Origin: an uncultured bacterium
Lineage (GTDB): Bacteria; Bacillota; Clostridia; Christensenellales; HGM11417
DNA: 64,000 nt
Assembly: GCA_905215695.1 (NCBI GenBank)
Contig: CAJMQN010000002.1
Span: 262,610-326,609 of the forward strand
Reading direction: 5' to 3'
A model generated the notes under the pieces. That model ran no database searches. It was not told where the DNA came from and saw only the letters and a program-made list of their open reading frames with translations. The position numbers were made by a program, and so were the translations under genes. Shown piece by piece: positions 1,492 through 60,945 of this stretch. Each line of letters opens with the position of its first letter. Position 1 is the stretch's first letter.

Positions 1492-2295
1492 TTACCAGGT
1501 CACAATGCGGTCAACAATCTCCTTCTGTTCGCTCGAAGTGCGGCGCAGGTAGATACGCGTCGTTTCGATGCTCTCGTGTCCCATTAAATCCGCGAGCAGG
1601 GCAATATCGTTGCACTTTTCCAGAAAATTTTTGGCAAAACGGTGCCGAAAGGAGTGCGGATAGACCACGCGCGGGTCGATTCCGTACCGAACCGCAAAGC
1701 TCTTGAGTTGTTTTCCTACCCCGCGCGCCGTCACGCGCTCTCCAAAGCGGTTCAAGAACAGAAATCCGCCACCCCGCCCCGCTTCCTTCAACCACGAGAA
1801 GGTCTCCTCGCGGAGCTTTTCGGGAATATACAGCCGTCGGAGCTTTCCGCCCTTTGCGTACAGGTCGAAATATCCGCACTGCACATGCTCGAGTTTCAGT
1901 TGGAGAAGCTCACCGATGCGCGCGCCCGTCGCCGCAAGGTAACGCACGACGAAATACCACTCCCTCTGCCCGTCCGCCTTGAGACGGGACAAAAGATAGC
2001 GGTAGTCCGCGTTGCTGATGACGTTTTCCAAAAAATTCTTCTGCTGGAGCTTGACCGGGGAGAGCGAAAGCTTCTCCCTGCCGAGAAATTTCAGATAGCG
2101 GTTGACACCCTGTATGCGGAGATTTACCGTCTTGGGCTTACAGCACTCCACAAGTTCCCCCTTGAAGGCGAGAAGATTTCTTCGGTTCCATTCCCCGTAG
2201 TCCGATTCAAATTTCCGCACCGCGTACAGATACGCACGCACCGTGTTCGGCGCGAGCTCTTGCTCTCTCAAAAACACCTCGAATTCCTCTTTCAT
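1492..2295 (-). CDS. Tyrosine recombinase, XerC/XerD-like small integrase
   Basis: 267 aa. The C-terminal catalytic region HSFRHRFAKNFL...LMGHESIETTRIYL matches the R-H-R-Y tyrosine recombinase signature. Confidence 0.8.
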   Translation of the reverse strand: MKEEFEVFLREQELAPNTVRAYLYAVRKFESDYGEWNRRNLLAFKGELVECCKPKTVNLRIQGVNRYLKFLGREKLSLSPVKLQQKNFLENVISNADYRYLLSRLKADGQREWYFVVRYLAATGARIGELLQLKLEHVQCGYFDLYAKGGKLRRLYIPEKLREETFSWLKEAGRGGGFLFLNRFGERVTARGVGKQLKSFAVRYGIDPRVVYPHSFRHRFAKNFLEKCNDIALLADLMGHESIETTRIYLRRTSSEQKEIVDRIVTW

Positions 2296-2499: not shown

Positions 2500-3648
2500 T
2501 TATTTCCAGATGTCGCGGTAAATTTGCAGAACGTCCGCCTTGTTGGGTACACGGGGATTGGTGAGCGTGCAGGCATCCGCAAGAGCGGCGTCCGCCATTG
2601 ACCCGATGTTCGCCATATACTCCTCTTCGGTGCACTTGCCGAGTTGGGAAATCGTGAGCGGAATGTTCATCTCCTTGAGCATGAACTGAATCCAGCTCAC
2701 CAACGCGCGCACCGTCGTAATCTCGTTGAAGTTTTGCAGACCCAAGAGCTTGGCGATGTTCAGATACTTGCGAACAGCGGGGAGATATTCCTTTTTTGAT
2801 TTGCTGTGTTGGTTGATGTCGCTGTTGTACTCGATGATGTGCGGAAGCAGAATCGCGTTCGCGCGCCCGTGCGGGACGTGGAAGGTCGCGCCGAGTTGGT
2901 GCGCCATGCCGTGATTGAGTCCGAGAGACGCCGAGTTGAACGCGAGACCCGCAAGACAGGACGCCACGTGCATCTTGCGCCGCGCGTGCACGTCGTTTCC
3001 GTCGTAGTACGCGCGCAGAAGAAACGCGCCGCAGATCTCGATCGCCTTCTCCGCGAGCGCCGCCGAAAACTCGTTGTTGTTGACGCTGACGTACGCCTCG
3101 ATGGCGTGGGTCAGAACGTCCATGCCCGTGTCCGCCGTGATTGCGGGCGGAACGGATTTGACGAGTTCCTCGTCCAAAATCGCCTCGGTCGGAAGCATAC
3201 GCTCGGACACAAGCGGATATTTGACGTGATTTGCCGGGTCCGTGATGACGGAGAACGCCGTCACCTCCGAGCCCGTGCCGCTCGTGGTCGGAATTGCGAT
3301 GAGCGCAATCTTTAACGAAGCGTCAATCTGCATGGTGAATTCGCGAATCGCCTTCGCAGAATCGATGGCGGAGCCGCCGCCCACCGCGATGATTGCCTCG
3401 GGCTTGTAATTCATGACTGCTTTGACCCCGGCGACAATCTTTTCGATCGGGGGGTCGGGCACCACGTCCTTGAAAATTTCAAAGTCCATGTTGCCGCTGT
3501 CCAGACGGTACGTGATGAGCTTGACCATGCCGCTCTCCACGACAAAGGGGTCTGTGATAATCATGACCCGCTTGTAGGGAATCTTTGCGAGACGGTCCAG
3601 CGCATTTTCGCCGAAATAAATTTTTGTCTTGATGTCGAAACTCTTCAT
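2500..3648 (-). CDS. Iron-containing (group III) alcohol dehydrogenase, PduQ/FucO-like
   Basis: 382 aa with the GGGSAIDSAKA motif and the His-rich metal site HGMAHQLG...HG typical of Fe-ADH. Last gene of the BMC operon. No N-terminal amphipathic extension. Confidence 0.85.
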   Translation of the reverse strand: MKSFDIKTKIYFGENALDRLAKIPYKRVMIITDPFVVESGMVKLITYRLDSGNMDFEIFKDVVPDPPIEKIVAGVKAVMNYKPEAIIAVGGGSAIDSAKAIREFTMQIDASLKIALIAIPTTSGTGSEVTAFSVITDPANHVKYPLVSERMLPTEAILDEELVKSVPPAITADTGMDVLTHAIEAYVSVNNNEFSAALAEKAIEICGAFLLRAYYDGNDVHARRKMHVASCLAGLAFNSASLGLNHGMAHQLGATFHVPHGRANAILLPHIIEYNSDINQHSKSKKEYLPAVRKYLNIAKLLGLQNFNEITTVRALVSWIQFMLKEMNIPLTISQLGKCTEEEYMANIGSMADAALADACTLTNPRVPNKADVLQIYRDIWK

Positions 3649-7721: not shown

Positions 7722-8360
7722 TCAGATGATATAGGCGGGCTGTCCGCAGGTAATCTTCGCCGCGTTTGCCTCGTCCGTATCGATGTGCATCTCCAGCGTA
7801 AAACTTGGATCTACGCGGATTTGCACGTTATTGAAAATGGTTCCGCGCTCGTTGTCCACGCGCACGGACACAATCTGTCCGTCCTTTACGCCCGCGCACT
7901 CCGCGTCCTTGGGGGACATGTGAATGTGCCGCTTTGCGACGATACAGCCTTCCTTTAAGTAAATCGCACCTTTGGGTCCCACAATCGCAATCGGGGCGGA
8001 ACCCTTCGTGTTGCCGGACTCCCGAATGGGCGCTTTGATGCCGAGTTTGACGGCGTCGGTTGCGGATATTTCCACCTGCGACCCCTTTCTCACGGGTCCC
8101 AAAATACGTACGTTTTCGATTGCGCGGAGCTTGAGCCCCACGATTGTGACCTGTTCGTTGGAGGCAAACTGCCCCCCCATCAGCTCTTTCTTCTTGGTGA
8201 GCTGATACCCTGCGCCGAAGAGCGCCTCCACGTCGTCTTGCGTTAGATGGACATGCCGCGCGGATACGCCGATCGGGACCATGAAACCGCCCTTGGTCTC
8301 ACGCTCCTTGATTGCCTCGAGCACCAGTCTTGTGATCGTTTCGATATTCTTCTCTTCCAC
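7722..8360 (-). CDS. pduL: Phosphate propanoyltransferase PduL with N-terminal encapsulation-like helix
   Basis: 212 aa with a GTG start. Duplicated PduL motifs GVSARHVHL and RHIHMSP. The N-terminus IETITRLVLEAIKE is an amphipathic helix. Confidence 0.85.
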   Translation of the reverse strand: MEEKNIETITRLVLEAIKERETKGGFMVPIGVSARHVHLTQDDVEALFGAGYQLTKKKELMGGQFASNEQVTIVGLKLRAIENVRILGPVRKGSQVEISATDAVKLGIKAPIRESGNTKGSAPIAIVGPKGAIYLKEGCIVAKRHIHMSPKDAECAGVKDGQIVSVRVDNERGTIFNNVQIRVDPSFTLEMHIDTDEANAAKITCGQPAYII

Positions 8361-8414
8361 TCTTCGTCACCGGTCCGTTTTGTTTGCATCCGAAAATCGG
8401 AGAACAAGCCAACC

Positions 8415-8445
8415 CATGCGCGGCGAAACTCTTCCGCCGCGCATG
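8415..8445 (-). promoter_or_regulatory. Intra-operon GC-rich stem-loop downstream of a shell gene
   Basis: catgcgcggcg (8415-8425), loop aaactcttc, cgccgcgcatg (8435-8445): an 11-bp perfect stem. No adjacent U-tract on the minus strand. Confidence 0.45.
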
Positions 8446-8491
8446 AACTGTCTGTCTATTTTGATGAGGTCTCGAAAAATCTTTGCCCTTC

Positions 8492-8770
8492 TTACTTGAG
8501 GACGGGCAGGATCTTCTCGACGTCGGTGTGGGGACGCGGAATCACGTGCGTCGCAACCAATTCACCAAGTTTTGACGCGCTCGACGCTCCCGACTCAACG
8601 GCAGCCTTGACAGCGCCTACGTCCCCGCGAACCATGACGCTCACGAGCCCGGAACCGATCTTCTCGGTGCCGACAAGTACGACGTTCGCAGCCTTCAGCA
8701 TCGCGTCAGCCGCCTCGACAGCCGCGACAAGACCACGCGTTTCAATCATTCCCAATGCTTCCTGTGCCAT
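8492..8770 (-). CDS. BMC-H hexamer shell protein, PduA/PduJ-like
   Basis: Start set at [14 protein letters not shown] (GGAGG lies 8 nt upstream). Canonical [21 protein letters not shown] core. Confidence 0.9.
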
Positions 8771-8792
8771 TTTTTTATCCTCCAAATGGTTG

Positions 8793-9119
8793 TTAAAAAA
8801 TTACTTTTTGGTTCCCTTGATTCCCGTTGCTCTTCCCCGCCATGCGGCTTGCGCTTAAAGCCACGATGCGGAGAATTTCCTCGTGCGGATTTGCGATGAC
8901 GTTCGCCGCAACCGGCTTTTTGATCGCCTTTTCCGCCGCGGCTTCGACCGCCTGCGTCACCGCGGAGACGTTTCCCTCCACGATAATCGTCACCAGCCTG
9001 CCGCCGAGTTTTCTCTCCCACGTGACGAAGGACACGTCCGCGGTCTTGCACATGATGTCAAGCGCGTCCACCGCCGCCGTCACGCCGGAGATTTCCACAA
9101 AGCCCAATGCCTTTCCCAT
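8793..9119 (-). CDS. BMC-H shell protein with basic pore-loop region and about 25-aa C-terminal tail
   Basis: 108 aa. The BMC domain is [29 protein letters not shown]. The loop is ERKLGGR instead of KIGSG. The tail is [18 protein letters not shown]. Confidence 0.75.
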
Positions 9120-9179
9120 ACTTTCCTCCTCCGGGTCTGCCGGTCACTATCCCGGCAGCCCGGGGCGCGGAAATTCCGA

Positions 9180-9455
9180 TTAGATCTTGGGAAGGATCTT
9201 TTCGACGTCGTTGTGCGGACGCGGAATCACGTGCACCGCAACCAGCTCGCCGAGTCTCGAAGCCGCAGCCGCGCCGACCTCGGTCGCCGATTTGACGGCG
9301 CCTACGTCCCCGCGAACCATCACCGTGACGAGTCCGGAACCGATTTTCTCGGTGCCGACAAGCGTCACTTCCGCTGCCTTAATCATCGCGTCAGCCGCCT
9401 CAATCGCAGCCGTCAGTCCGCGCGTCTCCACCATTCCGAGTGCAAGTTGTGCCAT
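9180..9455 (-). CDS. BMC-H hexamer shell protein, PduA/PduJ-like
   Basis: Start set at [14 protein letters not shown] (GGAGG upstream). Close paralog of the 8492-8770 gene. Confidence 0.9.
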
Positions 9456-9557
9456 TTTCAAAACCTCCAAAAATCTTTTTGATTTGTCTCTATATCAAAC
9501 GGGCGGGACGCCCGCGTGTGCCGGGAAACCGTTTTTCCGGGGAAACCCGCGGAATTT

Positions 9558-9869
9558 TTACTTCTTGTCGAGCGCGCTGAGTTTCAGCATCTTCTCGGTG
9601 TCCGTTTCGGGGCTCGCAATCACGTGGTGGGAGACCACGCCGGAAATCTTTTCCGCCGCCGCCATGCCCGCCTCCACCGCCGCTTTCACGTCCGCGACGG
9701 AGCCGCGGTACTTGACGCTCACGATGAGGGGCACGGGGAGCGCGTCCGCGTTGCCCGGTTTGTTCTTGTCGAAGGTCTCCAGCCGGACGTTTGCCGCCTT
9801 ACAGCCCGCGTCCCCCGCGGCAAACGCCGCGACGAGTCCGAACACCTCGAGAATTCCCACAGCTTCCAT
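9558..9869 (-). CDS. Divergent BMC-H shell protein with insertion at the pore loop
   Basis: 103 aa. BMC fold is recognisable (MEAVGILEVFGLVAAFAAGDAGCKAANV...RGSVADVKAAVEAG). The KIGSG pore loop is replaced by DKNKPGNADALPVPL. Confidence 0.7.
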   Translation of the reverse strand: MEAVGILEVFGLVAAFAAGDAGCKAANVRLETFDKNKPGNADALPVPLIVSVKYRGSVADVKAAVEAGMAAAEKISGVVSHHVIASPETDTEKMLKLSALDKK

Positions 9870-9883
9870 AACCGTTTACCCGA

Positions 9884-11098
9884 TTACTTGTTGACGATGG
9901 CGATCTTGAGACCTTCCATCTTCAGGTTGGTACGGAGCGCCTCGTTGATCTCCTCGAGGGGGAATTTGTGCGTAATCAGCTTGGACATCGGAAGCCCGAT
10001 TCCCTTCGCCCGTTTCAAAAAGTCAAAGGTCGTCGCGTAGTCGCGCAGGGTATAGACCCAACTTCCGACCGTGGTGATTTCCTTGGCGCAGATGTCGAAG
10101 TGCGGGTTGATAGTCGCGTCGCCGCCGTTGATAAAGAACCCGAGTTCGCACAGTCCGCCGCCGTTGCGGATAAACTTGTAGATGTTCGCGTGCGCCACGG
10201 GCGAACCCGTGCACTGGAAGGCGAAGTCCGCCGGGTGTCCGCCGAAGCTGTCCTCCACCGCTTTCGCGAGCGCCTCGATGCCCTTGTGGTCCTTGAAGTT
10301 GACCGTATGGCTTGCGCCCATCTCCTTGGCAAAGTCGAGACGTTTCTGCTCTCCGTCCACCGCGGTAATGTTCTCGATACCCATGGTGCGCAGTACGGCG
10401 ATGCAGATCAGTCCGATGGGACCGCAGCCCTGCACCACGACGCGGGAGTTAAAGCGCAGAATGTTGGTCGTCTTTGCCCGTTCCACCGCGTGTACGAGTA
10501 CAGCGCAGGGTTCGATGAGGATTCTCGAGTCGAGGTCGAGGTCGGAAACATTGAAGACCGTCGAGCCCTTGCGGATAAAGATGTAGTCCGAGAACCAACC
10601 GTTCAGGTGAATGTTGTCGTCCGGGAGCAGACCATAGACGTCCGCGCCCCCGACGTTCTGCTTATTCAGGTCGAAAATCGTGATGTCCGGGTTGTCCTTG
10701 AAGATCATGCAGGTGACGACCTTATCGCCGACCTTGAGGTCCTTGCCCGCGCTGTCTTTCTTGACGTTTTTGCCCATTTTGACGATTTCGCCGGTGCCCT
10801 CGTGCCCGAGCGCAACGGGAATCATGCCGAAGGGGTCGCGCTTGAACTCGTGCGCGTCCGTGCCGCACACGCCGCAGCCCTCTACCTTGACGAGAATGTC
10901 GTCGTCCCCTACTTCCGGAATCGGATATTCCTTGATGTCGAAGTTTTCGAGCTTGGTGAGCATCGCGACCTTCGCGGTCTTCGGAATCGCGCCGCCCGCC
11001 GCGGGACGGGAGGAAGTCGCGGCATCCGCGGGTCTGCCCGTCATGTCCGCAAGGACTTTCTTGACGATTTCGTCGATATTGACAGAATTGATATCCAT
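9884..11098 (-). CDS. Zinc-dependent medium-chain alcohol dehydrogenase with N-terminal encapsulation peptide
   Basis: 404 aa with MDR motifs CGVCGTDAHE, GHEGTGEIV and Rossmann VQGCGPIGL. An N-terminal extension of about 45 aa carries the amphipathic helix IDEIVKKVLADM plus a Pro/Ala/Ser linker. Confidence 0.8.
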   Translation of the reverse strand: MDINSVNIDEIVKKVLADMTGRPADAATSSRPAAGGAIPKTAKVAMLTKLENFDIKEYPIPEVGDDDILVKVEGCGVCGTDAHEFKRDPFGMIPVALGHEGTGEIVKMGKNVKKDSAGKDLKVGDKVVTCMIFKDNPDITIFDLNKQNVGGADVYGLLPDDNIHLNGWFSDYIFIRKGSTVFNVSDLDLDSRILIEPCAVLVHAVERAKTTNILRFNSRVVVQGCGPIGLICIAVLRTMGIENITAVDGEQKRLDFAKEMGASHTVNFKDHKGIEALAKAVEDSFGGHPADFAFQCTGSPVAHANIYKFIRNGGGLCELGFFINGGDATINPHFDICAKEITTVGSWVYTLRDYATTFDFLKRAKGIGLPMSKLITHKFPLEEINEALRTNLKMEGLKIAIVNK

Positions 11099-11111
11099 GT
11101 TTTGTTCTCCT

Positions 11112-12497
11112 TTATCTGATGCAGAGGCTGTCCGACATGACGCACCGTCTGCGCTTGGTGAACGTGGAGGCAGAAGTCAGCCCTTCGCCGGTGCGGGAGG
11201 CAATGGTAAAGGTGCAATATCCTTCGCCGCCGAACCCGAGCGCCGCATAGGAGGGCGCGTTCTTGACCAAAATTGCCGTGTCAATCGCCTTCGCGTACTT
11301 CGTAATGTTGTCGATATTCTTGGAGTGAATGTGCGCAGAGTGCCGGTTTCCGTGCTCAAGCCACACCGCCTTCTCCACCGCGTCGTCAAAATCCTTTGCT
11401 CGGACGATGCCCAAAATCGGCATCATCAGCTCTTCGGCGATGAGCGGGTGCTCCTTCTCGCCCTCGAAGATGATGCACCGAATGCTGTCCGGCACCTCTA
11501 CCCCGATCATGGCGAGCAGCGCTTTCGCGCTCCTGCCCACGCACTTGCGGTTGAGTCCCTTGGGGGTCAGAACCGTGGAGACGAGTTTGTCCTGCTCCTC
11601 TTTGGAGGCGAGGTAACAGCCCTGCTCCGAAATCATGTAGTGCATGAGTTCGTCGATGATCGAACCGACCGCGACGACTTCCTTTTCCGCGATGCAGGGA
11701 AGATTGTTGTCGAAAGTACAGCCGTTTACGATGTCCTCCGCCGCCTTGCGAATGTCCGCGGTCTCGTCCACAAGCGCCGGGGGATTGCCCGCGCCCGCGC
11801 CGATGCCGCGCTTTCCCGAGGAGAGCACCGCCGTCACGACGCCGGGACCGCCCGTCGCCACGATGAGCGGAATGTCCTTGTGCTTCATCATGATGTTGCT
11901 CGAATCCATCGTGGGCTTGACAAGCGAAACCGCCACGTTTTCGGGACCGCCCGCCTCGACGGACGCCTCGTTGACGAGGTTGACCGCAAAGTTCGAGGTC
12001 TTGATCGCCGCAGGGTGGGGATTGAATACCACCGTATTCCCCCCCGCAATCATGCCCATGCTGTTGCAGAGGATGGTCTCGGAAGGATTGGTGCAGGGCG
12101 TAATCGCGCCGATGACCCCGAAGGGTCCCATCTCGATGAGCGTCAATCCGCGGTCGCCCGACCACGCTGTCGTCGTGATGTCCTCGGTGCCGGGCGTCTT
12201 GTCCGCCACGAGGTGGTGCTTTAAAATCTTGTGCCCCACGTTGCCCATGCCCGTCTCTTCAACGCCCATTCGGGCAAGCGTTTCCGCATTTTCCTTGGTC
12301 TTTCTGCGGATATTCGAAATAATCTTTTCTCTCTGATCCATGGACATTCTGCGAAGCACCGTTTCAGCCTTTTTTGCCGCCTCGATCGCCTCGTTCATGT
12401 CCGTAAAGATGCCCATCTGCTTTCCGTCCGCGTTCAGACTGAACCGCGCAAGCACCTCTTTTACGATGTCCTGTACTACTTTTTCATTTACAGACAC
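11112..12497 (-). CDS. pduP: CoA-acylating aldehyde dehydrogenase, PduP-like, with N-terminal encapsulation peptide
   Basis: 461 aa of the ALDH superfamily, with the catalytic Cys context NNLPCIAEKE. The N-terminus is EKVVQDIVKEVLARF. Confidence 0.85.
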   Translation of the reverse strand: MSVNEKVVQDIVKEVLARFSLNADGKQMGIFTDMNEAIEAAKKAETVLRRMSMDQREKIISNIRRKTKENAETLARMGVEETGMGNVGHKILKHHLVADKTPGTEDITTTAWSGDRGLTLIEMGPFGVIGAITPCTNPSETILCNSMGMIAGGNTVVFNPHPAAIKTSNFAVNLVNEASVEAGGPENVAVSLVKPTMDSSNIMMKHKDIPLIVATGGPGVVTAVLSSGKRGIGAGAGNPPALVDETADIRKAAEDIVNGCTFDNNLPCIAEKEVVAVGSIIDELMHYMISEQGCYLASKEEQDKLVSTVLTPKGLNRKCVGRSAKALLAMIGVEVPDSIRCIIFEGEKEHPLIAEELMMPILGIVRAKDFDDAVEKAVWLEHGNRHSAHIHSKNIDNITKYAKAIDTAILVKNAPSYAALGFGGEGYCTFTIASRTGEGLTSASTFTKRRRCVMSDSLCIR

Positions 12498-13066
12498 GAT
12501 ATCACCTCTTTAAAACGGTCCCGCGCAAACTCGCCGAGCGCCGTATCCTCCTCGAGCGTGCCGCCGCTTACGCCGAACCCGCCGATCATCTTCTCGTTGT
12601 AATAGAGGGGTTCTCCCCCGCCGAAGATCACGAGCTTTCCGCCGTTTGTGAACTGAATCCCGTAGAGCGGACCGCCCGGCGCAGCCAAAGCCGCAAGTTT
12701 GGAGGTCGGCATCTGCAGGGACACCGAAGTGAACGCTTTGTTCACCGCGACGTCGTAGCTCGCTATGTAGGCGTCGTCCATGCAGTGCACGCAGACGGGA
12801 TTTCCGCCCGCGTCGCACACCGCCGCGACAATCTTCATGCCGCGTTTTACAGCCTCACGCTCGACTTCCTCGCAGAGCGCCTTCGCAATCGCGAGACTCA
12901 TGCGCTTGCCGCACTTGCAGACGTGTCCGTCCGCATGCCGGTGCAGAGGCTCGGCAGCGGGCGCGGGCTTTTCGAACGCAGCGGGGACAGCGGGAGTTTC
13001 TTCCTTCTTCCCCGCCATCTCGCGGACGATGGAGGCGATGGTCTGTGCGATTTCCGCCTCGTTCAT
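12488..13066 (-). CDS. GlcG/DUF336 (PduO C-terminal-like, heme-binding family) protein with N-terminal encapsulation peptide
   Basis: 192 aa. The C-terminal 130 aa resemble DUF336 (AAVCDAGGNPV...SYDVAVNKAFTS...GGFGVSGG). The N-terminus is EIAQTIASIVREMAG, followed by a Pro/Ala linker and then HRHADGHVCKCG. Confidence 0.7.
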   Translation of the reverse strand: MNEAEIAQTIASIVREMAGKKEETPAVPAAFEKPAPAAEPLHRHADGHVCKCGKRMSLAIAKALCEEVEREAVKRGMKIVAAVCDAGGNPVCVHCMDDAYIASYDVAVNKAFTSVSLQMPTSKLAALAAPGGPLYGIQFTNGGKLVIFGGGEPLYYNEKMIGGFGVSGGTLEEDTALGEFARDRFKEVISCL

Positions 13067-13069
13067 GGT

Positions 13070-13882
13070 TTACAGTCCGAGCTGCTTCATGACGCGCTCG
13101 GTGATCGCCGCGATCATGTCCGAAGCGCCGCTGTTCGCCGTATTCTCCGAAGTGGGAATGCAGGAGCCGTTGCAGCTGTGGCAGCTGGGCTTGCCGTTCT
13201 TGTTGTTGACGCAGATGTCCGCCGGGTGCTTGCCCTTCAGACCGAACTGACGGCGAATCTCATACAGTCTCTGAACCTGCTCGTCGGAGAGGAGCTCGGG
13301 TCCGCCGAGCTGCTTGGACTTGAAGAGGAGCTCCGCGTAGAATTCGACGGACTCCATCTTGTGATAGGCATTCAGCAAAGAATCCGAATAGGTCAGCGCG
13401 CCGTGGTTCTCGAGGAGCACCGCGTCGAAGTACTGAAGGTACTTGGAAACCGCCTGCGGAATCTCGTCCGTGGAGGGCGTGCCGTACTCGGCGATCGGAA
13501 CGCAGCCGAGCGCGATGACCGCCTCGGGCATGATGGGCTGCGTGAGCGGAATGCCCGCAATCGCGAAGCTCGTCGCATAGATCGGATGCGCGTGCACGAC
13601 GGACTGTACGTCCGGGCGCTCCTTATAAACTCTCATGTGCATCTTGATTTCCGAAGAGGGCTTGAACCCAGGGTTCGCCTGAAGAACCTCGCCCTTCTCG
13701 TTGACTTTGCAGATATAATCGGGAGTCATGAATCCCTTGGAGACGCCGGTCGGCGTGCAGAGGAACTCGTGGTCGTTCAGCTTGACCGAAATGTTGCCGT
13801 CGTTCGCCGCGACCATTCCCCTGTCGTAGATACGCTTGCCGATGTCGCAGATCTGTTTCTTGATTTCGTATTCGTTTTGCAT
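13070..13882 (-). CDS. Class II aldolase (fuculose/rhamnulose-1-phosphate aldolase-like) with C-terminal Cys cluster and encapsulation peptide
   Basis: Start moved to the second ATG (AGGAGG lies 7 nt upstream). Aldolase_II features: GNISVKL and HAHPIYAT. The C-terminal extension is CVNNKNGKPSCHSCNGSC...DMIAAITERVMKQLGL. Confidence 0.8.
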   Translation of the reverse strand: MQNEYEIKKQICDIGKRIYDRGMVAANDGNISVKLNDHEFLCTPTGVSKGFMTPDYICKVNEKGEVLQANPGFKPSSEIKMHMRVYKERPDVQSVVHAHPIYATSFAIAGIPLTQPIMPEAVIALGCVPIAEYGTPSTDEIPQAVSKYLQYFDAVLLENHGALTYSDSLLNAYHKMESVEFYAELLFKSKQLGGPELLSDEQVQRLYEIRRQFGLKGKHPADICVNNKNGKPSCHSCNGSCIPTSENTANSGASDMIAAITERVMKQLGL

Positions 13883-13932
13883 TTTCATGCCTCCTAAAAT
13901 ATTTCCTTATTTTTCTTTTGGATTTCGACTCT

Positions 13933-13961
13933 ATTATACGCCAAAAACGGACACAAGTCAA
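13933..13961 (-). promoter_or_regulatory. Consensus sigma70 promoter upstream of the aldolase gene (internal promoter of the BMC locus)
   Basis: Minus strand reads TTGACT (13961-13956), 17-nt spacer, TATAAT (13938-13933). Confidence 0.6.
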
Positions 13962-13986
13962 CATTTTTAAGCGAATATTTTGGGTA

Positions 13987-14469
13987 TTATGTCTGGGATT
14001 TTGTGGTTTCGTGTTGTTTTTGTTCCCAAGGAAGGATATCGCCGGGCTCACGCAGGTATTCGAGGATGTCGGAAACGCCCTCGCCCGTGCGGGAATCCAC
14101 AAAAAAAATCTTTTTGCAGCCCGTGAGCCGGAGCCAACGCTCCGCCCGTGCGGGGTTTGCGCCGGGTTCCCGAATCTTGGTCACGATGCCAACAACCTCG
14201 CGGTTGACGAGACAGGTGATATTGGGCGGAAACAGCGAGTAGGGTTCGGTCGAGGAGATCAGAAGTCCCACGACCTGCGCCTCGTAGGAGTACAGCGCGA
14301 GCGCATGCCCGAGTCGGGCAACCTGCGCGTACTCTCCGGGCGTATCGATGATGACGTCAAAGTTGTTGATGTACTGTGTCTTGTGGTAGGTGATTTTCTC
14401 GCCCCGCAGGGCCTGCGTGAGCGTGGTTTTGCCGACCTCACTCCGACCCATGAGCACGATTTTGCGCAT
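13987..14469 (-). CDS. EutP/PduV-family small GTPase
   Basis: 160 aa. P-loop GRSEVGKTTL and DTPGEY switch II, typical of EutP/PduV. Confidence 0.85.
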   Translation of the reverse strand: MRKIVLMGRSEVGKTTLTQALRGEKITYHKTQYINNFDVIIDTPGEYAQVARLGHALALYSYEAQVVGLLISSTEPYSLFPPNITCLVNREVVGIVTKIREPGANPARAERWLRLTGCKKIFFVDSRTGEGVSDILEYLREPGDILPWEQKQHETTKSQT

Positions 14470-14470
14470 A

Positions 14471-14836
14471 TCAGGTCCTCGAAATCTCGCAGACCGTAAA
14501 TCCGAGCGTATCCCTTGTATAATCGGTCAGTGCGCGGAGCGCTGCCTCCACCTCGGAGACCGTGCCCGTCACGATGAGCGTACCACTGAAACGGTCCACA
14601 AAGGAGAGATCCACGCCGGACGCCTTGATTGCAATGTCGGCGATGATGATTGCCGTCTCCGCCGGGCTGATGGTTACGACGCCAATCGCCGCCTTCGCGT
14701 AGTCGATCGAGGGGTCAAGTCCGAGCTTTTGGTAGAGAATTTTGTCCGGGTTCGCGATGACGTGCGCAATGGAGATCTGTTTGCCCGGAACCAGCTCCTG
14801 TACGATGCGCATCTTATCCTGAATTTCCTGAGACAT
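14471..14836 (-). CDS. Circularly permuted BMC shell protein, EutS/PduU-like
   Basis: 121 aa. N-terminal extension followed by ISIAHVIANPD...AIGVVTISPAETAIIIADIAIKASGV, typical of PduU/EutS. Confidence 0.8.
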   Translation of the reverse strand: MSQEIQDKMRIVQELVPGKQISIAHVIANPDKILYQKLGLDPSIDYAKAAIGVVTISPAETAIIIADIAIKASGVDLSFVDRFSGTLIVTGTVSEVEAALRALTDYTRDTLGFTVCEISRT

Positions 14837-14858
14837 AGGGTTTCCTCTTTTTATTATT

Positions 14859-15007
14859 GTTGCCGCTGCAACGCCTTACGACCCGACCGTGCTTAAGAGC
14901 GAGCGCGGAGCGCGAGTGTACCCCTTCGGGGTGTAGTCGCTCCTCGGGACTCTTATGCGAGTGCAAGCACTCACGCACTCCCCTCGTCACGACCATAACA
15001 CGGTCGG
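14859..15007 (-). ncRNA. Unclassified structured RNA or palindromic repeat element, copy 1 (sense with the BMC operon)
   Basis: Fills the activase to PduU-like intergenic space and starts 3 nt after the activase stop. Homologous to 59870-60012. The closing helix CCGACCGUG/CACGGUCGG (plus-strand 14883-14891 with 14999-15007) differs from copy 2 by three compensatory pairs. Shared hairpins are ACCCC-GAA-GGGGU and GUUGC-AGCG-GCAAC. Confidence 0.5.
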
Positions 15008-15010
15008 AAA

Positions 15011-15805
15011 TTATCCTCCAATCTGTACGTCGAGACCGCTCGCCTCTCTCGCGACCTTTGCGAGGGATTCCATGGTCTCCATGGCCGGCGGCACAATGTC
15101 CTTCATAAGGTATTCCCGTCCGAGACCGTCGTACTTGTCCTGTCCCAATCTGTGATACGGGAGCAGATGAATTTTCTTTACGCCCGGAAGACTTGCCGAA
15201 AATATCGCGATGTCCCGGATTTCCTCGGGCGTGCAGTTGAAGGTCGGAATCACCGGCACCCGAATGGAAAGCTGCGTTCTGCCGTCCTGCGCAATCTTCT
15301 TTGCGTTCTCGAGCATGAGCTCATTGGACTTGCCGCAGAACTCGCGGTGCTTTTCCGGGTTCATGTGCTTGATGTCTAAAAGATATTGGTCCAGCCAGGG
15401 CAAAAGCCGCTCAATGATTGAGAACGAAGCGCACCCCATGCTCTCCATGGCGGTGGTCAGTCCGCGCTCCTTTGCCCCGCGCAAAAGCGCCTCGGCAAAG
15501 TCGGGTTGGCAAAGGCTCTCGCCCCCCGAAAGCGTCAGTCCGCCCCCGTCCGAACGCCGGTAATAGGTGCGGTCGCGCTCCACAATCTCCAGAACCTCCC
15601 GCGCGGTCACGTCCTCGCCGATGGTCTTGGGTTTGCCCTGTACCGTCATGGTCTGAATGCGGTACTCTTGGGATTCGGGATTACAGCACCAGCGGCAACG
15701 CAGGACGCAACCCTTTAAAAACACGATGGTACGGATTCCCTTGCCGTCGTGTATGGAGAATCTCTGTATGTCGAAGATTCTCCCCTTGGTATCCAAATAA
15801 TCCAT
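15011..15805 (-). CDS. Glycyl-radical enzyme activating enzyme (radical SAM)
   Basis: 264 aa. Radical SAM cluster CVLRCRWCCNPE. Sits immediately downstream of the GRE (1-nt gap). Confidence 0.9.
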   Translation of the reverse strand: MDYLDTKGRIFDIQRFSIHDGKGIRTIVFLKGCVLRCRWCCNPESQEYRIQTMTVQGKPKTIGEDVTAREVLEIVERDRTYYRRSDGGGLTLSGGESLCQPDFAEALLRGAKERGLTTAMESMGCASFSIIERLLPWLDQYLLDIKHMNPEKHREFCGKSNELMLENAKKIAQDGRTQLSIRVPVIPTFNCTPEEIRDIAIFSASLPGVKKIHLLPYHRLGQDKYDGLGREYLMKDIVPPAMETMESLAKVAREASGLDVQIGG

Positions 15806-15806
15806 A

Positions 15807-18332
15807 TCAGAACCCCTGCTCGGTGCGGTTGATGATGTCGTCCTGCAAAGAGCGGGAAAGCGTTGTAAACAGCGCCGAATATCCCGCCACGCGCACGACG
15901 AGGTGCTTGTAGTTTTCGGGGTGCTTCTGCGCGTCGATGAGGGTCTCGCGGGTCACGACGTTGAACTGCATATGGCTGCCCTTTTGATCAAAATAGGAAC
16001 GGATCAGCGCGACGAAGTTCTCCAGCCCCGTCCGCCCGGCGAGCGCCGAGGGATGGAATTTCTGATTGAACAGCGTTCCGTTGGAGGCAATGTAGTGGTC
16101 GAGACGGGAGACAGAGTTCGCCGCCGCCGTCGGACCGTGCGTGTCCTTGCCCGCGGAGGGAGAAACACCGTCCGCGACGGGCTTGCCCGCGAGCCGCCCG
16201 TCCGGGGTCGCCCCCGTCTGTGCGCCCAGCGGAACGTTCGCCGAGACCGGATACAGCCCCGCTTGGAAGGTGCCGCCGCGCGGGTTCTTGAAATTCTGGA
16301 GGGGGCGCGTGTAGGTGTACGCCACGTCCCGCGCGAACGCATCTACCTCATCGACATCGTTTCCGAATTTCGGAATCGCTTCGATGAGCTCTAAAAGCTC
16401 GTCGTATCTCTTCTTGTCCTCGGGCGAAACGCTGCCTGCGAGCACTTGCGCGAGCACTGCGGCAATCTGTTCCTCTCCCACAGGCTTGCCCGCCGCCTTT
16501 AGGTTTTTCACGACCTCGACGGTGACGCGCTGCGCCTCTTCCGGGCTCACGCCCCTGCCGTAATTCGCGGCAAGCGCGCGTTTAAATTCCGCAAGGGTCA
16601 CCTTCTTTTCGTCAAAGACCAATTTTTTGATCGCATACAGCGAATCCGCCATATTCGCGACGCCGAATCCCTGCGGTCCGGTGAAGTTATAGACCGCACC
16701 GCCCTCCTGCACGCTCTTGCCCCGTTTCATGCAGTCCTCCACCATGCAGGAGAGGAAGGGAAGCGGGCACCGCTCCGCGTGCGCGACGTCAATCGCGTTG
16801 TCGGCGTTGACGAGGAGTTCGATATTGTAGTTCATCTGCGCCTTGTAGGCGTCGTAGAATTCTTCGAAGGTCTTAAAGTTCTCGACCTCGCCGGTCTTAA
16901 TACTGATCTGCTCGCCCTTGTCCACACCGTTGGAGAACACGAGCTCGAGCGGACGGCACATGTTGAAGAACGCGGCGTCGTGCCACCCTTCCGTCTTGCC
17001 CGCCTTTTGGGGCTCAACGCATCCGATGATATTGTAGTCCCGCGCATCGGCAAGGGTCAGCCCCCTGTTCATGAGGGAGGGAATGATCACTTCGTCGTTA
17101 TAGTACGCGGGCAGTCCCACGCCCGTCCGCGTCAGCTCCGCCGCGCGGATCAGGAATTCGTGCGGAGAACCGTTCCATACCCGCACCGAGAAGGAGGGCT
17201 GCGGAAGAAGCACGTGCATGCTCGCGTTGATACACATAAAGGAGAGGTCGTTGGTCGCGTCCTTTCCCTCAACGTCCTGTCCGCCGGCAATGAGGTTTTG
17301 GAAGAGACTGTACCCCGCAAACCCTTCGGCGGATGCCGCGTCGCGGCACTTGTTGAGGTCGTTGAGTTTGACCCAAATGCAGTCCATGAGCTCCTGCGCG
17401 AACTTTCTCGTCACGCGACCGAGCTGCACGTCCTTTTCATAATAGGGATACATATATTGGTCAAAGCGCCCGGGCGAAATGCTGTGTCCGCTGGACTCGA
17501 GCTGTAGGAGCTGCTGAACGAACCAGAAGGACTGACACGCCTCCCAAAAGCTCTGCGCGCCCTTTGCGGGAACACGGGAGCAGTTCCGGGCAATCGTCAA
17601 AAGTTCCTCCCGGCGCGCGGCGTCGCCGCAGGATGCCGCAAGTTCGTTTGCGAGCGCGGCATACCGATTTGCATATTCGATGACCGCTTCACAGGAGATG
17701 ATGACAGCCTCAAGGAAACGGGATTTCTTGGCGTAATTCGCATCGCCGGGACGGCAGGAGGCAAGCTCCGCCTTCGCCTCTTCGATGATACCCTCATAGC
17801 CGACGGCGAGCACCTTGCCATAGTTGACGGTGACGTGTCCGACGCCGTTATAGAAATAGTTGCCCGGCGTGAAAATGTTGTGTTCGATGGCTTTCTGCGC
17901 CTCGGGCGCCATATAAGAGGTCGCGAGTTCGCTCGTTGTCTTGCCCTTCCAGTAGGCATCCGCCTCTTTGAGCTCCTTCTTGGTCTTTTCCGAAATAAAG
18001 AAGGGGTCGGCGGTACGGGTGGCGACGGTATCGAATTCGGACTCCAGCCATTCGTAGGAAAATTCGGGATAGGTCTGACAGCCGCGGGGCGCTATCGTCG
18101 AACTGCCGACAATGAGCTCCTCGTCGCGAATAATAATAGGAATATTTTTGAGAATGTGGCGGAATGCCTTCGCACGGCGGAGCACGATGGGTTCGTTCTC
18201 CGTTTGCCGGTAAGATTCGGTCAGAAGAATCGCGCGCGCGGATTCAATCTCGGGCATCTTCGCAAACAGATTGTCCACAAGACGGGAAATCCGGGGGCTT
18301 TTTTCAATCGGTTCACTGTTGAATTTCTGCAT
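15807..18332 (-). CDS. Glycyl radical enzyme, probable B12-independent 1,2-propanediol dehydratase (by locus context)
   Basis: 841 aa. Glycyl radical motif RVAGYSALF near the C-terminus and Cys loop IIGCVEP. Substrate assignment rests only on the aldolase/PduP/PduL/shell context. Confidence 0.85.
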   Translation of the reverse strand: MQKFNSEPIEKSPRISRLVDNLFAKMPEIESARAILLTESYRQTENEPIVLRRAKAFRHILKNIPIIIRDEELIVGSSTIAPRGCQTYPEFSYEWLESEFDTVATRTADPFFISEKTKKELKEADAYWKGKTTSELATSYMAPEAQKAIEHNIFTPGNYFYNGVGHVTVNYGKVLAVGYEGIIEEAKAELASCRPGDANYAKKSRFLEAVIISCEAVIEYANRYAALANELAASCGDAARREELLTIARNCSRVPAKGAQSFWEACQSFWFVQQLLQLESSGHSISPGRFDQYMYPYYEKDVQLGRVTRKFAQELMDCIWVKLNDLNKCRDAASAEGFAGYSLFQNLIAGGQDVEGKDATNDLSFMCINASMHVLLPQPSFSVRVWNGSPHEFLIRAAELTRTGVGLPAYYNDEVIIPSLMNRGLTLADARDYNIIGCVEPQKAGKTEGWHDAAFFNMCRPLELVFSNGVDKGEQISIKTGEVENFKTFEEFYDAYKAQMNYNIELLVNADNAIDVAHAERCPLPFLSCMVEDCMKRGKSVQEGGAVYNFTGPQGFGVANMADSLYAIKKLVFDEKKVTLAEFKRALAANYGRGVSPEEAQRVTVEVVKNLKAAGKPVGEEQIAAVLAQVLAGSVSPEDKKRYDELLELIEAIPKFGNDVDEVDAFARDVAYTYTRPLQNFKNPRGGTFQAGLYPVSANVPLGAQTGATPDGRLAGKPVADGVSPSAGKDTHGPTAAANSVSRLDHYIASNGTLFNQKFHPSALAGRTGLENFVALIRSYFDQKGSHMQFNVVTRETLIDAQKHPENYKHLVVRVAGYSALFTTLSRSLQDDIINRTEQGF

Positions 18333-52490: not shown

Positions 52491-52688
52491 CTATATAAAC
52501 TCCTGTCAGAGGAAATAAGAACTGATAACTTTGATATTATATCAGATATGATGTAATGCCCGTCGAAATGCTCTTGAGCCCTTCGGGTTAGCATTTCTCC
52601 GGCACATTATATCATATTTTCTGTCGCATTACAATAGCAATATATGAATTTTTATGCAAAATATACGAATTTTTTATCGGGACAAGCT

Positions 52689-59862: not shown

Positions 59863-59869
59863 TATATTT

Positions 59870-60012
59870 CCGGTCGCGTTATGGTCGCGACGAGAGGAGT
59901 GCGCGAGTGCTCGTACGCGCATACGAGTCCCGAGGAGCGACCACACCCCGAAGGGGTATGGTCGTTGCTCCCGCTTAATCGCGACCGGGTGATAAGGCGT
60001 TGCAGCGGCAAC
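59870..60012 (+). ncRNA. Unclassified structured RNA or palindromic repeat element, copy 2
   Basis: Starts 8 nt after the amidase-domain gene stop. The closing helix is CCGGUCGCG (59870-59878) with CGCGACCGG (59980-59988). It shares GAGUCCCGAGGAGCGAC, ACACCCCGAAGGGGUA and AAGGCGUUGCAGCGGCAAC with copy 1. Confidence 0.5.
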
Positions 60013-60185
60013 GAACTTCCGCCGAGCCGGAAGTCAATCCCGTCTCGGCTCAATCGGTTGCAAACCGAATACTTCTTAAAAAACAAATTACACCGACAAA
60101 GTTTGCAAGCACTTGTCGGAAATAGCCTCATTTTGACAGACATTCGAGCGCAACCCTTGTGACCGAATCTGCCCATTAGCAGAAA

Positions 60186-60217
60186 ATTAACGCCCCCGCG
60201 ATTGCGGGGGCGTTTCC
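60186..60217. terminator. Terminator hairpin between convergent transcription units
   Basis: acgcccccgc (60190-60199), loop gatt, gcgggggcgt (60204-60213). T-rich sequence follows on both strands. Confidence 0.65.
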
Positions 60218-60223
60218 TGTCTA

Positions 60224-60934: not shown

Positions 60935-60945
60935 ATTTTCCCCTC

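What the first reader, a model, noticed from the sequence alone, without database searches (positions are those of the whole stretch)
14859..15007. Structured ~145-nt element present twice with compensatory base changes; this copy sits inside the BMC operon between the activase and the PduU-like gene
Seen in sequence: the 174-nt gap between the activase stop (15011) and the PduU-like start (14836) is almost entirely one element. It recurs at 59870-60012 on the opposite DNA strand, and in both places it lies in the sense orientation of the local transcript, 3-8 nt after a stop codon. Long blocks are identical (GAGUCCCGAGGAGCGAC, ACACCCCGAAGGGGUA, AAGGCGUUGCAGCGGCAAC). The 9-bp long-range closing helix differs at three positions, and all three changes are compensated: copy 1 is CCGACCGUG/CACGGUCGG and copy 2 is CCGGUCGCG/CGCGACCGG. 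A hairpin GGAGC(G)...ACCCC-GAA-GGGGU...(C)GCUCC and a 3-prime hairpin GUUGC-AGCG-GCAAC are kept in both copies. Inference: selection acts on pairing rather than on a peptide, so this is a structured RNA (processing or stability site, 3-prime-UTR-derived sRNA, protein-binding platform) or a REP/MITE-like palindromic DNA element. I could not match it to any RNA family I know; T-box, riboswitch cores, 6S, SRP, RNase P, tmRNA and the hammerhead core were considered.
Basis: partly seen in the sequence, partly recalled or inferred. Interest (0 to 1): 0.65.

Follow-up and report, generated by a model that had tools for sequence, protein, structure and literature searches.

The report
Strain-variable structured repeat after stop codons
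The element in the microcompartment operon is real and folds as described, but it is one copy of a small structured repeat that is present or absent between strains of one uncultured gut bacterium, always directly after a stop codon, so it resembles known bacterial intergenic repeats and is not an operon-specific RNA.

Summary
Two copies (window 14855-15010 minus strand; 59863-60077 plus strand) are 80-84% identical, and their closing helix differs by three fully compensated pairs. No Rfam family matches.

More copies were found in human-gut metagenome contigs of the same species group. They follow an Amidase_3 gene, a DD-carboxypeptidase gene and a class-3 FBPase gene. A shorter 'mini' form has a third compensated closing helix and a fully covarying 3' hairpin with an unchanged 11-nt loop. 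A 48-nt 'micro' palindrome also exists.

In every oriented copy the closing helix starts 2-7 nt after the stop codon of a same-strand gene.

The element is not part of the operon's design. Sibling species have a 3-4 nt activase-PduU gap. So does one close relative whose activase 3' end is identical to the window. Other strains lack the copies after Amidase_6 and FBPase.

Two scans of 185,579 species genomes found no copy.

Best reading: a lineage-restricted, modular repeat of the REP/BIME, bcr1 and SPRITE kind, co-transcribed with the upstream gene. It probably acts as a stop-codon-proximal hairpin. Whether RNA or DNA folding is selected, and how it spreads, remain open. Interest is modest.

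The parts
14855..15010 (-). Copy 1, the short form: P1 domain plus P4 hairpin, between the glycyl-radical-enzyme activase stop and the PduU-like gene
   Evidence: The covariance model matches 14828-15014 at 161 bits. The orthologous site is empty in L018, L019 and L041.
14999..15007 (-). Copy 1, P1 5' strand CCGACCGUG; it starts 3 nt after the activase TAA stop
14883..14891 (-). Copy 1, P1 3' strand CACGGUCGG
   Evidence: Duplex energy -16.2 kcal/mol.
14957..14974 (-). Copy 1, P2 hairpin GUGAGUG-CUUG-CACUCGC
   Evidence: Five copy variants carry four different tetraloops.
14907..14943 (-). Copy 1, P3 hairpin with the ACCCC-GAA-GGGGU top
14859..14872 (-). Copy 1, P4 hairpin GUUGC-AGCG-GCAAC
14837..14858 (-). 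A-rich spacer with a Shine-Dalgarno sequence (AAGAGGAAAC at 14840-14849) for the PduU-like gene. It is absent from the empty sites, where a 3-4 nt gap separates the genes.
59863..60077 (+). Copy 2, the long form, after the Amidase_6 gene stop (59860-59862): P1 domain, P4, P5, P6 and a U-rich tail
   Evidence: The covariance model matches at 269 bits. The site is empty in strain L023.
59870..59878 (+). Copy 2, P1 5' strand CCGGUCGCG; it starts 7 nt after the TAA stop
59980..59988 (+). Copy 2, P1 3' strand CGCGACCGG
   Evidence: Duplex energy -17.7 kcal/mol.
59903..59920 (+). Copy 2, P2 hairpin
59934..59971 (+). Copy 2, P3 hairpin
59999..60012 (+). Copy 2, P4 hairpin
   Evidence: The stem changes to GUCG/CGAC in the mini form.
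60021..60049 (+). Copy 2, P5 hairpin GCCGAGCCG/CGUCUCGGC with the conserved 11-nt loop GAAGUCAAUCC (60030-60040)
   Evidence: The mini form has five doubly changed pairs in this stem and the same loop.
60054..60077 (+). Copy 2, P6: a weak terminator-like hairpin (60054-60068) and the tail AUACUUCUU

Best explanation
**What it is.** The element is one member of a small, lineage-restricted family of modular, palindrome-rich intergenic repeats. The host is an uncultured human-gut bacterium, probably a member of Clostridia, with about 56% G+C.

**Architecture.** The basic unit is a long irregular hairpin:
- a 9-bp G+C-rich closing helix, P1;
- a conserved internal loop, UUAU on one side and GCUUAAU on the other;
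- a variable apical part.

The apical part is a 3-nt loop in the 'micro' and 'mini' forms. In the full form it is an insert of about 86 nt holding hairpins P2 and P3. Optional 3' modules follow: P4, then P5 with the fixed loop GAAGUCAAUCC, then a weak terminator-like hairpin, P6.

**How it behaves.** Copies are gained, lost, internally deleted and recombined between strains. It therefore behaves as non-autonomous mobile or recombining DNA, not as a designed part of any operon.

**Likely effect (inferred, not shown).** Each oriented copy lies in the sense orientation with P1 beginning 2-7 nt after a stop codon, so it is co-transcribed as a 3'-UTR or intercistronic hairpin. In that position it would work like a REP sequence within 15 nt of a stop codon. 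A terminating ribosome must melt P1, which can lower the yield of the upstream protein. The folded structure would also block 3'-to-5' exonucleases.

In the BMC operon, the insertion replaced a 3-4 nt, probably translationally coupled, activase/PduU junction. The new junction has a structured spacer and an independent ribosome-binding site. The operon copy is the short form without the terminator-like modules, which fits selection against termination inside an operon.
For: **Repeat family**
- Two copies lie in the window.
- Further copies lie in human-gut contigs after other genes: L013 after Amidase_3, L014 after a DD-carboxypeptidase, and a 'mini' form in L014/L027 after FBPase_2.
- A 48-nt 'micro' form fills the whole gap between two convergent stop codons in L035.
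- Short-read assemblers break inside the element, as expected for a repeat: L002, L005-L008, L033 and L040.

**Gain and loss**
- The activase-PduU site is empty in L018 (91% activase identity), L019 (80%) and L041 (96%; last 67 nt of activase DNA identical to the window). It is filled in L040 (96%).
- Strain L023 lacks the copies after Amidase_6 and after FBPase.
- L016 has an internal deletion between TATGGTCG direct repeats.
- L013 carries the full form where L035 has the micro form.

**Structure is conserved while sequence changes**
- Nine base pairs have changes on both sides, and 95% of cells are paired. No shuffle of 500 reaches any of the five measures, and slid controls fall to 31-41% paired.
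- P1 exists in three compensated versions (-16.2, -17.7 and -19.0 kcal/mol).
- The P5 stem is almost wholly replaced around an identical 11-nt loop.

**Position and orientation**
- The spacer between stop codon and P1 is 3, 3, 7, 7, 2, 5 and 7 nt at seven junctions.
- GC skew is negative across the whole window. The two oppositely oriented copies therefore lie on one replichore and follow their local gene, not the replication direction.

**Other points**
- No sigma-70-like promoter precedes either copy in the sense direction.
- No Rfam family matches.
- The element is not coding. The conserved loop GAAGUCAAUCC is read in different frames relative to the conserved AUG in copy 2 and in the mini form, and the amino-acid sequence is not conserved.
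- Precedent: REPs fewer than 16 nt from a stop codon stall ribosomes and lower translation (Liang et al. 2015, as summarised in PMC12306157). Many intergenic repeats sit at gene 3' ends, are co-transcribed and affect mRNA stability. bcr1 (about 155 bp, Bacillus cereus group) is strain-variable, transcribed and keeps its structure by compensatory changes. [quoted passage not shown]
Against: - Only five or six distinct sites are known, so the orientation bias is weak statistically (about 0.03 for five of five).
- The genome-wide copy number could not be measured.
- No clean target-site duplication or truly terminal inverted repeats are seen. Filled and empty sites differ by replacement of 16-35 nt, not by a simple insertion.
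- No transposase or RAYT gene lies in the window or in the roughly 240 kb of same-species loci with precomputed Pfam annotation.
- The family was not found in 185,579 species genomes or in viral contigs. It could therefore be a few decaying relics and not an active repeat.
- No expression data exist, so co-transcription, ribosome stalling and mRNA stabilisation are all inferred.
- Sense and antisense strands fold about equally well.
- The invariant junctions and the invariant P5 loop suggest a more specific function than a generic hairpin.
Confidence: 0.6

Rival explanations
1. It is a specific functional RNA module that happens to be spread over several 3' UTRs. Possibilities are a protein-binding platform, a processing site, a 3'-UTR-derived small RNA, or a sensor of terminating ribosomes. 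On this view it acts through its invariant junctions (UUAUGG, GCUUAAU, UAAGGCG) and the invariant P5 loop GAAGUCAAUCC.
For: - Stems turn over while loops and junctions stay identical.
- Orientation is strictly sense, and P1 starts 2-7 nt after the stop codon at every oriented site.
- Orientation follows transcription, not replication.
- Three substitutions between orthologous copy-2 variants fall on a P2 pair, in the P3 bulge and in the P4 loop; the P2 change only swaps G-U for G-C.
- No known family matches.
Against: - Each site is dispensable: empty sites exist in close relatives for three of the loci.
- The core is deleted in L016, and is replaced by a 3-nt loop in the mini and micro forms.
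- The distribution is extremely narrow: no copy in 185,579 species genomes.
- Folding shows no strand asymmetry.
- No partner gene is consistently nearby.
Confidence: 0.17
2. It is a purely DNA-level element. It could be a non-autonomous derivative of a single-strand-DNA (HUH-type) transposon, or a recombination hot spot. The hairpins would matter only in single-stranded DNA or as cruciforms. The compensated changes would arise by quasipalindrome-templated mutation and would have no RNA role.
For: - The micro form is a nearly symmetric palindrome that reads alike on both strands.
- Sense and antisense strands fold equally well.
- Strain rearrangements have their breakpoints at the element: L013 against L035, L014 against L027, and the window against L023.
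- A deletion lies between internal direct repeats.
- A second small hairpin repeat (H2), flanked by 8-bp direct repeats, occurs in the same genomes. This shows that small mobile DNA hairpins are active in this lineage.
Against: - Orientation tracks the adjacent gene, not the replichore.
- The 11-nt P5 loop is conserved over a completely replaced stem, which templated mutation does not explain.
- No HUH transposase or RAYT gene was seen in the sequence sampled.
- There is no conserved tetranucleotide head and no fixed target sequence at the junctions.
Confidence: 0.2
3. It is a dedicated cis-regulatory RNA of the BMC operon that sets the ratio of glycyl-radical enzyme and activase to shell proteins.
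For: It sits between the activase and the PduU-like gene and fills the whole gap.
Against: It is absent from the same junction in L018, L019 and the near-identical L041. The other copies follow unrelated genes.
Confidence: 0.02
4. It encodes a small protein that starts at the conserved AUG in UUAUGG.
For: An ORF from that AUG is open in copies 1 and 2, in L013 and in the mini form. Gene callers have called it in some contigs (P0001, P0144). The length differences between AUG and CUUAA are multiples of three.
Against: - No Shine-Dalgarno sequence precedes the AUG.
- Most substitutions change the amino acid.
- The conserved block GAAGUCAAUCC is read in different frames in copy 2 and in the mini form.
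- The only related protein found among 5.8 billion and 1.84 billion proteins is another spurious ORF from the same locus.
- The antisense frame is also open, as expected for G+C-rich sequence.
Confidence: 0.01

Closest known systems
bcr1 repeat of the Bacillus cereus group (about 155 bp)
   Same: Both are from Firmicutes and about 150 nt long. Both vary in location between closely related strains. bcr1 is transcribed with neighbouring genes, and its folded structure is kept by compensatory base changes (PMC3184786).
   Different: bcr1 is flanked by 5-bp direct repeats in each case and has many copies per genome (the copy number is from my own knowledge). Here no clean duplication is seen and only 5-6 sites are known. 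All oriented copies here are sense and abut a stop codon. No sequence similarity was tested or is claimed.
REP/BIME elements of Enterobacteria and Pseudomonas, in particular REPs within 15 nt of a stop codon
   Same: Both are G+C-rich imperfect palindromes in extragenic DNA at gene 3' ends, between convergent or co-oriented genes, and are co-transcribed. BIMEs are mosaics of modules. REPs closer than 16 nt to a stop codon stall ribosomes and lower translation (PMC12306157, citing Liang 2015). REPs also affect mRNA stability.
   Different: REPs are 20-40 nt long, carry a conserved GTAG or CGTC head (title of PMC3733652), occur in hundreds of copies and are linked to RAYT transposases. This element is 48-215 nt long and begins UUUCCG. 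No RAYT gene was seen. Its arms covary between copies.
Pneumococcal BOX and SPRITE repeats
   Same: [quoted passage not shown] BOX is a transcribed, non-autonomous tandem array of repeat units. RNA-level roles have been proposed for both (PMC3184786).
   Different: There is no sequence relationship. The host clade differs. Copy number here is unknown and probably much lower.
ERIC and Correia-type MITEs
   Same: They are 100-160 nt structured repeats, co-transcribed at gene 3' ends, that modulate mRNA decay.
   Different: Those elements have terminal inverted repeats and TA duplications and occur in both orientations. Here the 3' arm of the inverted repeat is internal and no duplication is evident.
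Integron attC sites
   Same: They are imperfect palindromes whose structure, not sequence, is conserved. They lie just downstream of an ORF in a fixed orientation.
   Different: No RYYYAAC/GTTRRRY core sites are present (read from the sequence), no integron integrase is nearby and there is no cassette array. The upstream genes are core housekeeping or operon genes.

Membership tests
Any Rfam 15 RNA family | Covariance-model score at or above the family's gathering threshold | tested here: not met
   There were no hits at gathering threshold in the whole window. E-value mode on copy 1, copy 2, L013 and L014 gave only noise, such as terminator look-alikes and a microRNA model at 13-24 bits against thresholds of 37-80, or 24-36 bits against 50.
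Classical MITE | Inverted repeats at both termini, conserved between copies | tested here: not met
   The 5' arm of P1 lies 2-7 nt from the 5' boundary. The 3' arm is internal, followed by 24-90 nt holding P4-P6. The arms differ between copies in three compensated versions.
Classical MITE | Target-site duplication flanking the element | tested here: inconclusive
   Filled and empty sites differ by replacement of 16-35 nt: window against L041/L018, L014 against L023, L013 against L035. No unambiguous duplication is seen. The short A/T-rich repeats at the junctions could be chance.
Classical MITE | Presence/absence polymorphism between related genomes | tested here: met
Classical MITE | A related autonomous insertion sequence with matching ends in the same genome | not testable with these tools
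   Only the window and about 240 kb of same-species loci with Pfam annotation could be read, and no transposase was seen in them.
REP/BIME | A 20-40 nt G+C-rich palindrome with a conserved GTAG or CGTC head | tested here: not met
   All copies begin U(U/C)UCCG or UUCCG. The lengths are 48 nt (micro), 138 nt (mini) and 156-215 nt (full).
REP/BIME | Extragenic location at gene 3' ends, between convergent or co-oriented genes | tested here: met
   All sites lie after stop codons. One is in a co-oriented operon gap. The three sites whose downstream gene was read (after Amidase_6, Amidase_3 and the micro form) lie between convergent genes.
REP/BIME | High copy number and an associated RAYT (TnpA-REP) gene | not testable with these tools
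   The whole genome is not available. No Y1/HUH transposase domain was found in the sequence sampled.
REP acting on translation (Liang et al. 2015) | A stable hairpin that begins fewer than 16 nt after the stop codon of the upstream gene | tested here: met
   The spacers are 2-7 nt at seven junctions. P1 duplex energies are -16 to -19 kcal/mol. The criterion is taken from PMC12306157.
REP acting on translation (Liang et al. 2015) | Ribosome stalling, tmRNA tagging and reduced upstream protein | not testable with these tools
   This needs an experiment.
bcr1-like repeats | Strain-variable distribution together with compensatory changes that keep the fold | tested here: met
   The feature is as described in PMC3184786.
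bcr1-like repeats | Flanking 5-bp direct repeats | tested here: not met
   No consistent flanking pentanucleotide occurs at the seven junctions.
Integron attC | RYYYAAC and GTTRRRY core sites at the ends, with an integron integrase and a cassette array | tested here: not met
   The core sites are not present at the ends (read from the sequence). The only tyrosine recombinase ORF in the window (1492-2295) lies about 12.5 kb from copy 1 and has no cassette array.

The most novel reading that the evidence does not exclude
The family could be a mobile RNA module that works on the terminating ribosome or recruits a specific factor. Its closing helix is placed 2-7 nt after a stop codon, so that translation of the upstream gene opens or closes it. 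Its invariant junctions and the GAAGUCAAUCC loop would bind a protein or another RNA. It would then be a portable post-transcriptional control cassette that gut Clostridia move between 3' UTRs and operon junctions. Here it would uncouple the glycyl-radical enzyme and activase from shell-protein synthesis.
Probability: 0.12. Interest if true: 0.65.

Novelty: new member of a known kind. Interest (0 to 1): 0.32.

Why it matters
Taken as the best explanation, this adds an undescribed, Rfam-absent family of structured interspersed repeats from an uncultured human-gut bacterium.

Two features are unusually clean:
- A modular build, with micro, mini and full forms found at comparable sites.
- A strict position directly behind stop codons.

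Natural filled and empty alleles exist for the same genes in closely related strains. That gives a ready-made comparison for asking whether stop-codon-proximal hairpins tune protein yield or mRNA stability in Clostridia. So far this has been shown only for E. coli REPs.

There is also a practical point. The element breaks short-read assemblies and sits at strain rearrangement points.

It does not reveal a new regulatory principle of microcompartment operons.

Tried and rejected
**Searches that found nothing**
- Rfam at gathering and E-value thresholds on the window, both copies, L013, L014 and the H2 repeat: nothing real.
- Exact and degenerate pattern scans. Two genome-contig scans gave 0 hits and 1 chance hit in Streptomyces. 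Three viral-contig scans gave 0 hits. One metagenome scan gave two real and two chance hits.
- BLASTN against plasmids and phages: one chance hit, then none.
- The covariance model R1 found no further copy in the window or in about 235 kb of fetched loci. Its only new hit was a weak match to the H2 repeat.

**The spurious-ORF trick**
- I translated the element and searched 5.8 billion and 1.84 billion proteins. Only one ORF from the same locus came back.

**Ideas that failed**
- Readthrough or recoding signal: the open frame is in phase with the upstream stop in copy 2 only, not in copy 1 or L013 (read).
- Alternative-pairing switch, in which GGUCGCG competes with the 5' strand of P1. Copy 1 against copy 2 looked suggestive, but L040 combines the copy-1 arm with GGUCGCG, so there is no consistent covariation.
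- Strand of folding from G-U pairs or folding energy: not decisive.
- Retron, group II intron domain, attC, T-loop/tRNA-like structure and self-cleaving ribozyme cores were considered from the sequence. They were dropped for lack of defining motifs or partner genes.

**Dead ends**
- A homologue search found no full-length DD-carboxypeptidase from the L014 species. The 3' half of the L014 copy may therefore be an assembly chimera.
- The organism could not be named. No source name was attached to its proteins.

Full report
**1.

Copy 1 fills the gap between the stop of the glycyl-radical-enzyme activase (TAA, 15011-15013) and the ATG of the PduU-like gene (14834-14836). Both genes are on the minus strand. 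Copy 2 lies on the plus strand just after the TAA of an Amidase_6 gene (59860-59862).

- The two copies are 80-84% identical.
- The 9-bp closing helix is CCGACCGUG/CACGGUCGG in copy 1 and CCGGUCGCG/CGCGACCGG in copy 2. That is three differences, all compensated.
- Both copies fold better than dinucleotide shuffles (z = -3.25 and -3.62).
- Rfam 15 has no match at gathering thresholds in the window, and no credible match at relaxed thresholds.

**2. More copies, and a modular family**

A metagenome pattern scan found two more copies in human-gut contigs. L013 follows an Amidase_3 gene and L014 follows a DD-carboxypeptidase gene. Both are sense-oriented and start right after the stop codon.

These two and copy 2 share another 60-65 nt on the 3' side that copy 1 lacks.

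In L014 and in L027-L031, a 138-nt 'mini' form follows the class-3 FBPase gene. The mini form:
- keeps the junctions UUAUGG, GCUUAAU and UAAGGCG;
- has a third compensated closing helix, CCGCGCGCG/CGCGCGCGG;
- replaces the 86-nt core by GGAGAC-UUU-GUCUCC;
- changes the P4 stem from GUUGC/GCAAC to GUCG/CGAC;
- changes the P5 stem from GCCGAGCCG/CGUCUCGGC to GCAUUCCCC/GGGGAAUGC around an identical 11-nt loop, GAAGUCAAUCC.

At the Amidase_3 site most strains carry only a 48-nt 'micro' palindrome, UUCCG..UUAUG(G/C)AGAC-NNN-GUCU(C/G)C..CGGAA. It fills the whole gap between two convergent stop codons.

On an alignment of seven variants, 95% of cells pair and nine pairs have changes on both sides. 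No shuffle of 500 reaches any of the five measures, and slid controls fall to 31-41% paired. A covariance model built from this alignment recovers all copies. It finds no other copy in the window or in about 235 kb of fetched loci.

**3. The element comes and goes**

*The operon junction.*
- Sibling lineages with the same gene order have only 4 nt between the activase and the BMC gene. These are L018 (activase 91% identical) and L019 (80%).
- L041's last 67 nt of activase DNA are identical to the window, yet its junction is empty: TAG-AGC-GTG.
- L040 (96% identical) has the element after a TGA stop. The stop codon is therefore not part of the element.

*The other sites.*
- Strain L023 has a 156-residue Amidase_6 with its own terminator and no element.
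- L023's FBPase ends in TAG, followed by the same terminator that follows the mini form elsewhere.
- L016 lacks the core, through a deletion between two TATGGTCG repeats.

In each case filled and empty alleles differ by replacement of 16-35 nt. They do not differ by a clean insertion with a duplication.

Short-read contigs often end inside the element.

Two scans of one genome for each of 185,579 species found no copy. Three viral scans found none either.

**4. Position and orientation**

At seven junctions the closing helix starts 2-7 nt after the stop codon of a gene on the same strand.

GC skew is negative across all 64 kb. The two oppositely oriented window copies therefore lie on one replichore and follow their genes, not replication.

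No sigma-70-like promoter precedes either copy in the sense direction.

Copy 2 ends with a weak terminator-like hairpin and a U-rich tail. Copy 1, which sits inside an operon, lacks these modules. An A-rich spacer and a new Shine-Dalgarno sequence for the PduU-like gene follow it instead.

**5. What it is not**

- *Not operon-specific.* See section 3.
- *Not coding.* There is no Shine-Dalgarno sequence before the AUG. Most changes alter the amino acid. The conserved P5 loop is read in different frames in copy 2 and in the mini form. The only related 'protein' in two very large catalogues is a spurious ORF from the same locus.
- *Not a readthrough signal.* The open frame is in phase with the upstream stop only in copy 2.
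- *Not an attC site.* It has no core sites, and there is no integron.
- *Not a classical MITE or REP.* See the membership table.

**6. Most likely mechanism**

*Shown:* the element is a repeated, strain-variable, modular hairpin element whose pairing is kept while stems change. It sits directly behind stop codons in the sense orientation.

*Inferred:* it is co-transcribed. Its P1 helix (-16 to -19 kcal/mol) lies within the mRNA stretch that a ribosome must unwind to bring the stop codon into the A site (own knowledge of the ribosome's mRNA channel). E. coli REPs closer than 16 nt to a stop codon stall ribosomes and lower translation (Liang et al. 2015, via PMC12306157). Co-transcribed 3' repeats also alter mRNA decay (PMC3184786). 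The same would be expected here.

In the operon, the insertion turned a probably coupled 3-4 nt junction into a structured spacer with its own ribosome-binding site.

*Unknown:* how the element spreads. No transposase lies in the sequence sampled.

*Caveats:* sense and antisense strands fold equally well. Quasipalindrome-templated mutation (own knowledge) could produce compensated arms without any RNA-level selection. However, the fixed 11-nt loop over a replaced stem argues for real constraint on that hairpin.

**7. Comparison with known elements, and verdict**

The closest analogues are:
- bcr1 of the Bacillus cereus group (about 155 bp, strain-variable, transcribed, structure kept by compensatory changes);
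- REP/BIME elements (module mosaics at gene 3' ends, with an effect that depends on closeness to the stop codon);
- pneumococcal SPRITE and BOX repeats.

This element shares their behaviour but not their defining sequence features. I file it as a new family of a known kind.

Interest is modest. The strict adjacency to stop codons, the micro/mini/full series and the natural filled and empty alleles make it a good test case. It is not a new kind of system, and it is not a specific regulator of the microcompartment operon.

Noticed in passing
window 52536-52613 (minus strand); also L035 16964-17130, L023 about 3110-3215, L027 about 2640-2740: A second small hairpin repeat, 'H2': CCGGAG/CCCGAG, a stem, CCC-GAA-GGG, the return stem, then GACGGG. 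In the window it is flanked by 8-bp direct repeats GATATAAT in a promoter-like TATAAT region upstream of a rhamnosidase gene. In L035 it is a 72-nt insertion that L036-L039 lack. Its 5' flank and top (UCCCGAG ... CCCGAAGGG) resemble hairpin P3 of the main element. The full form may therefore be a mini form with a nested H2-like hairpin. No Rfam or viral match.
   Followed up: partly
L038 11259-11332 and L039 10931-11004 (also L035 17070-17143): Another insertion polymorphism, of 74 nt, lies in the same TATAAT-rich intergenic region upstream of a Ribonuclease_3-domain gene. It is absent from L036 and L037. Several kinds of small insertion therefore vary between these strains.
   Followed up: no
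window 60076-60157 (minus strand): A remnant of a DUF6809 gene: its last few codons, the stop and an intrinsic terminator. The gene is intact and convergent to the element in other strains (L014 1536-1808). The L013 insertion also carries a convergent DUF6809 paralogue, 18% identical. Two long-form copies thus face the 3' end of a DUF6809 gene.
   Followed up: partly
window 59863-60945 compared with L023 10472-11584 and L027 9983-10809: The stretch between the Amidase_6 and FBPase_2 genes varies between strains. The window has a PHP-domain gene there. L023 has an 80-residue gene, an HTH_3 gene and a 29-residue gene. L027 has a DUF6809 gene. The breakpoints lie at the element.
   Followed up: partly
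L014 1859-2073: This copy combines a copy-1-type 5' arm (CCGACCGUG) with a copy-2-type 3' arm (CGCGACCGG), which gives two A-C mismatches in P1. The contig has 1.8x coverage. It is either a recombinant between copies or an assembly chimera.
   Followed up: partly
window 718-1185: Four tandem repeats of 120 nt, 72-79% identical to each other, overlap an ORF (10-825) that has no Pfam match.
   Followed up: no
window 1492-2295 (minus strand): A tyrosine recombinase ORF (Phage_integrase family) lies beside a ParA-like ATPase, a DeoR regulator and an Fe-alcohol dehydrogenase, at the far end of the BMC locus.
   Followed up: no
window 7722-18332 (minus strand): The BMC locus is a glycyl-radical-enzyme type that carries a class II aldolase. 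Its genes are the GRE, the activase, PduU-like and PduV-like proteins, the aldolase, an HbpS-like protein, aldehyde and alcohol dehydrogenases, shell proteins, PTAC, EutN and an RnfC-like protein. The gene order is conserved in L018 and L019.
   Followed up: no
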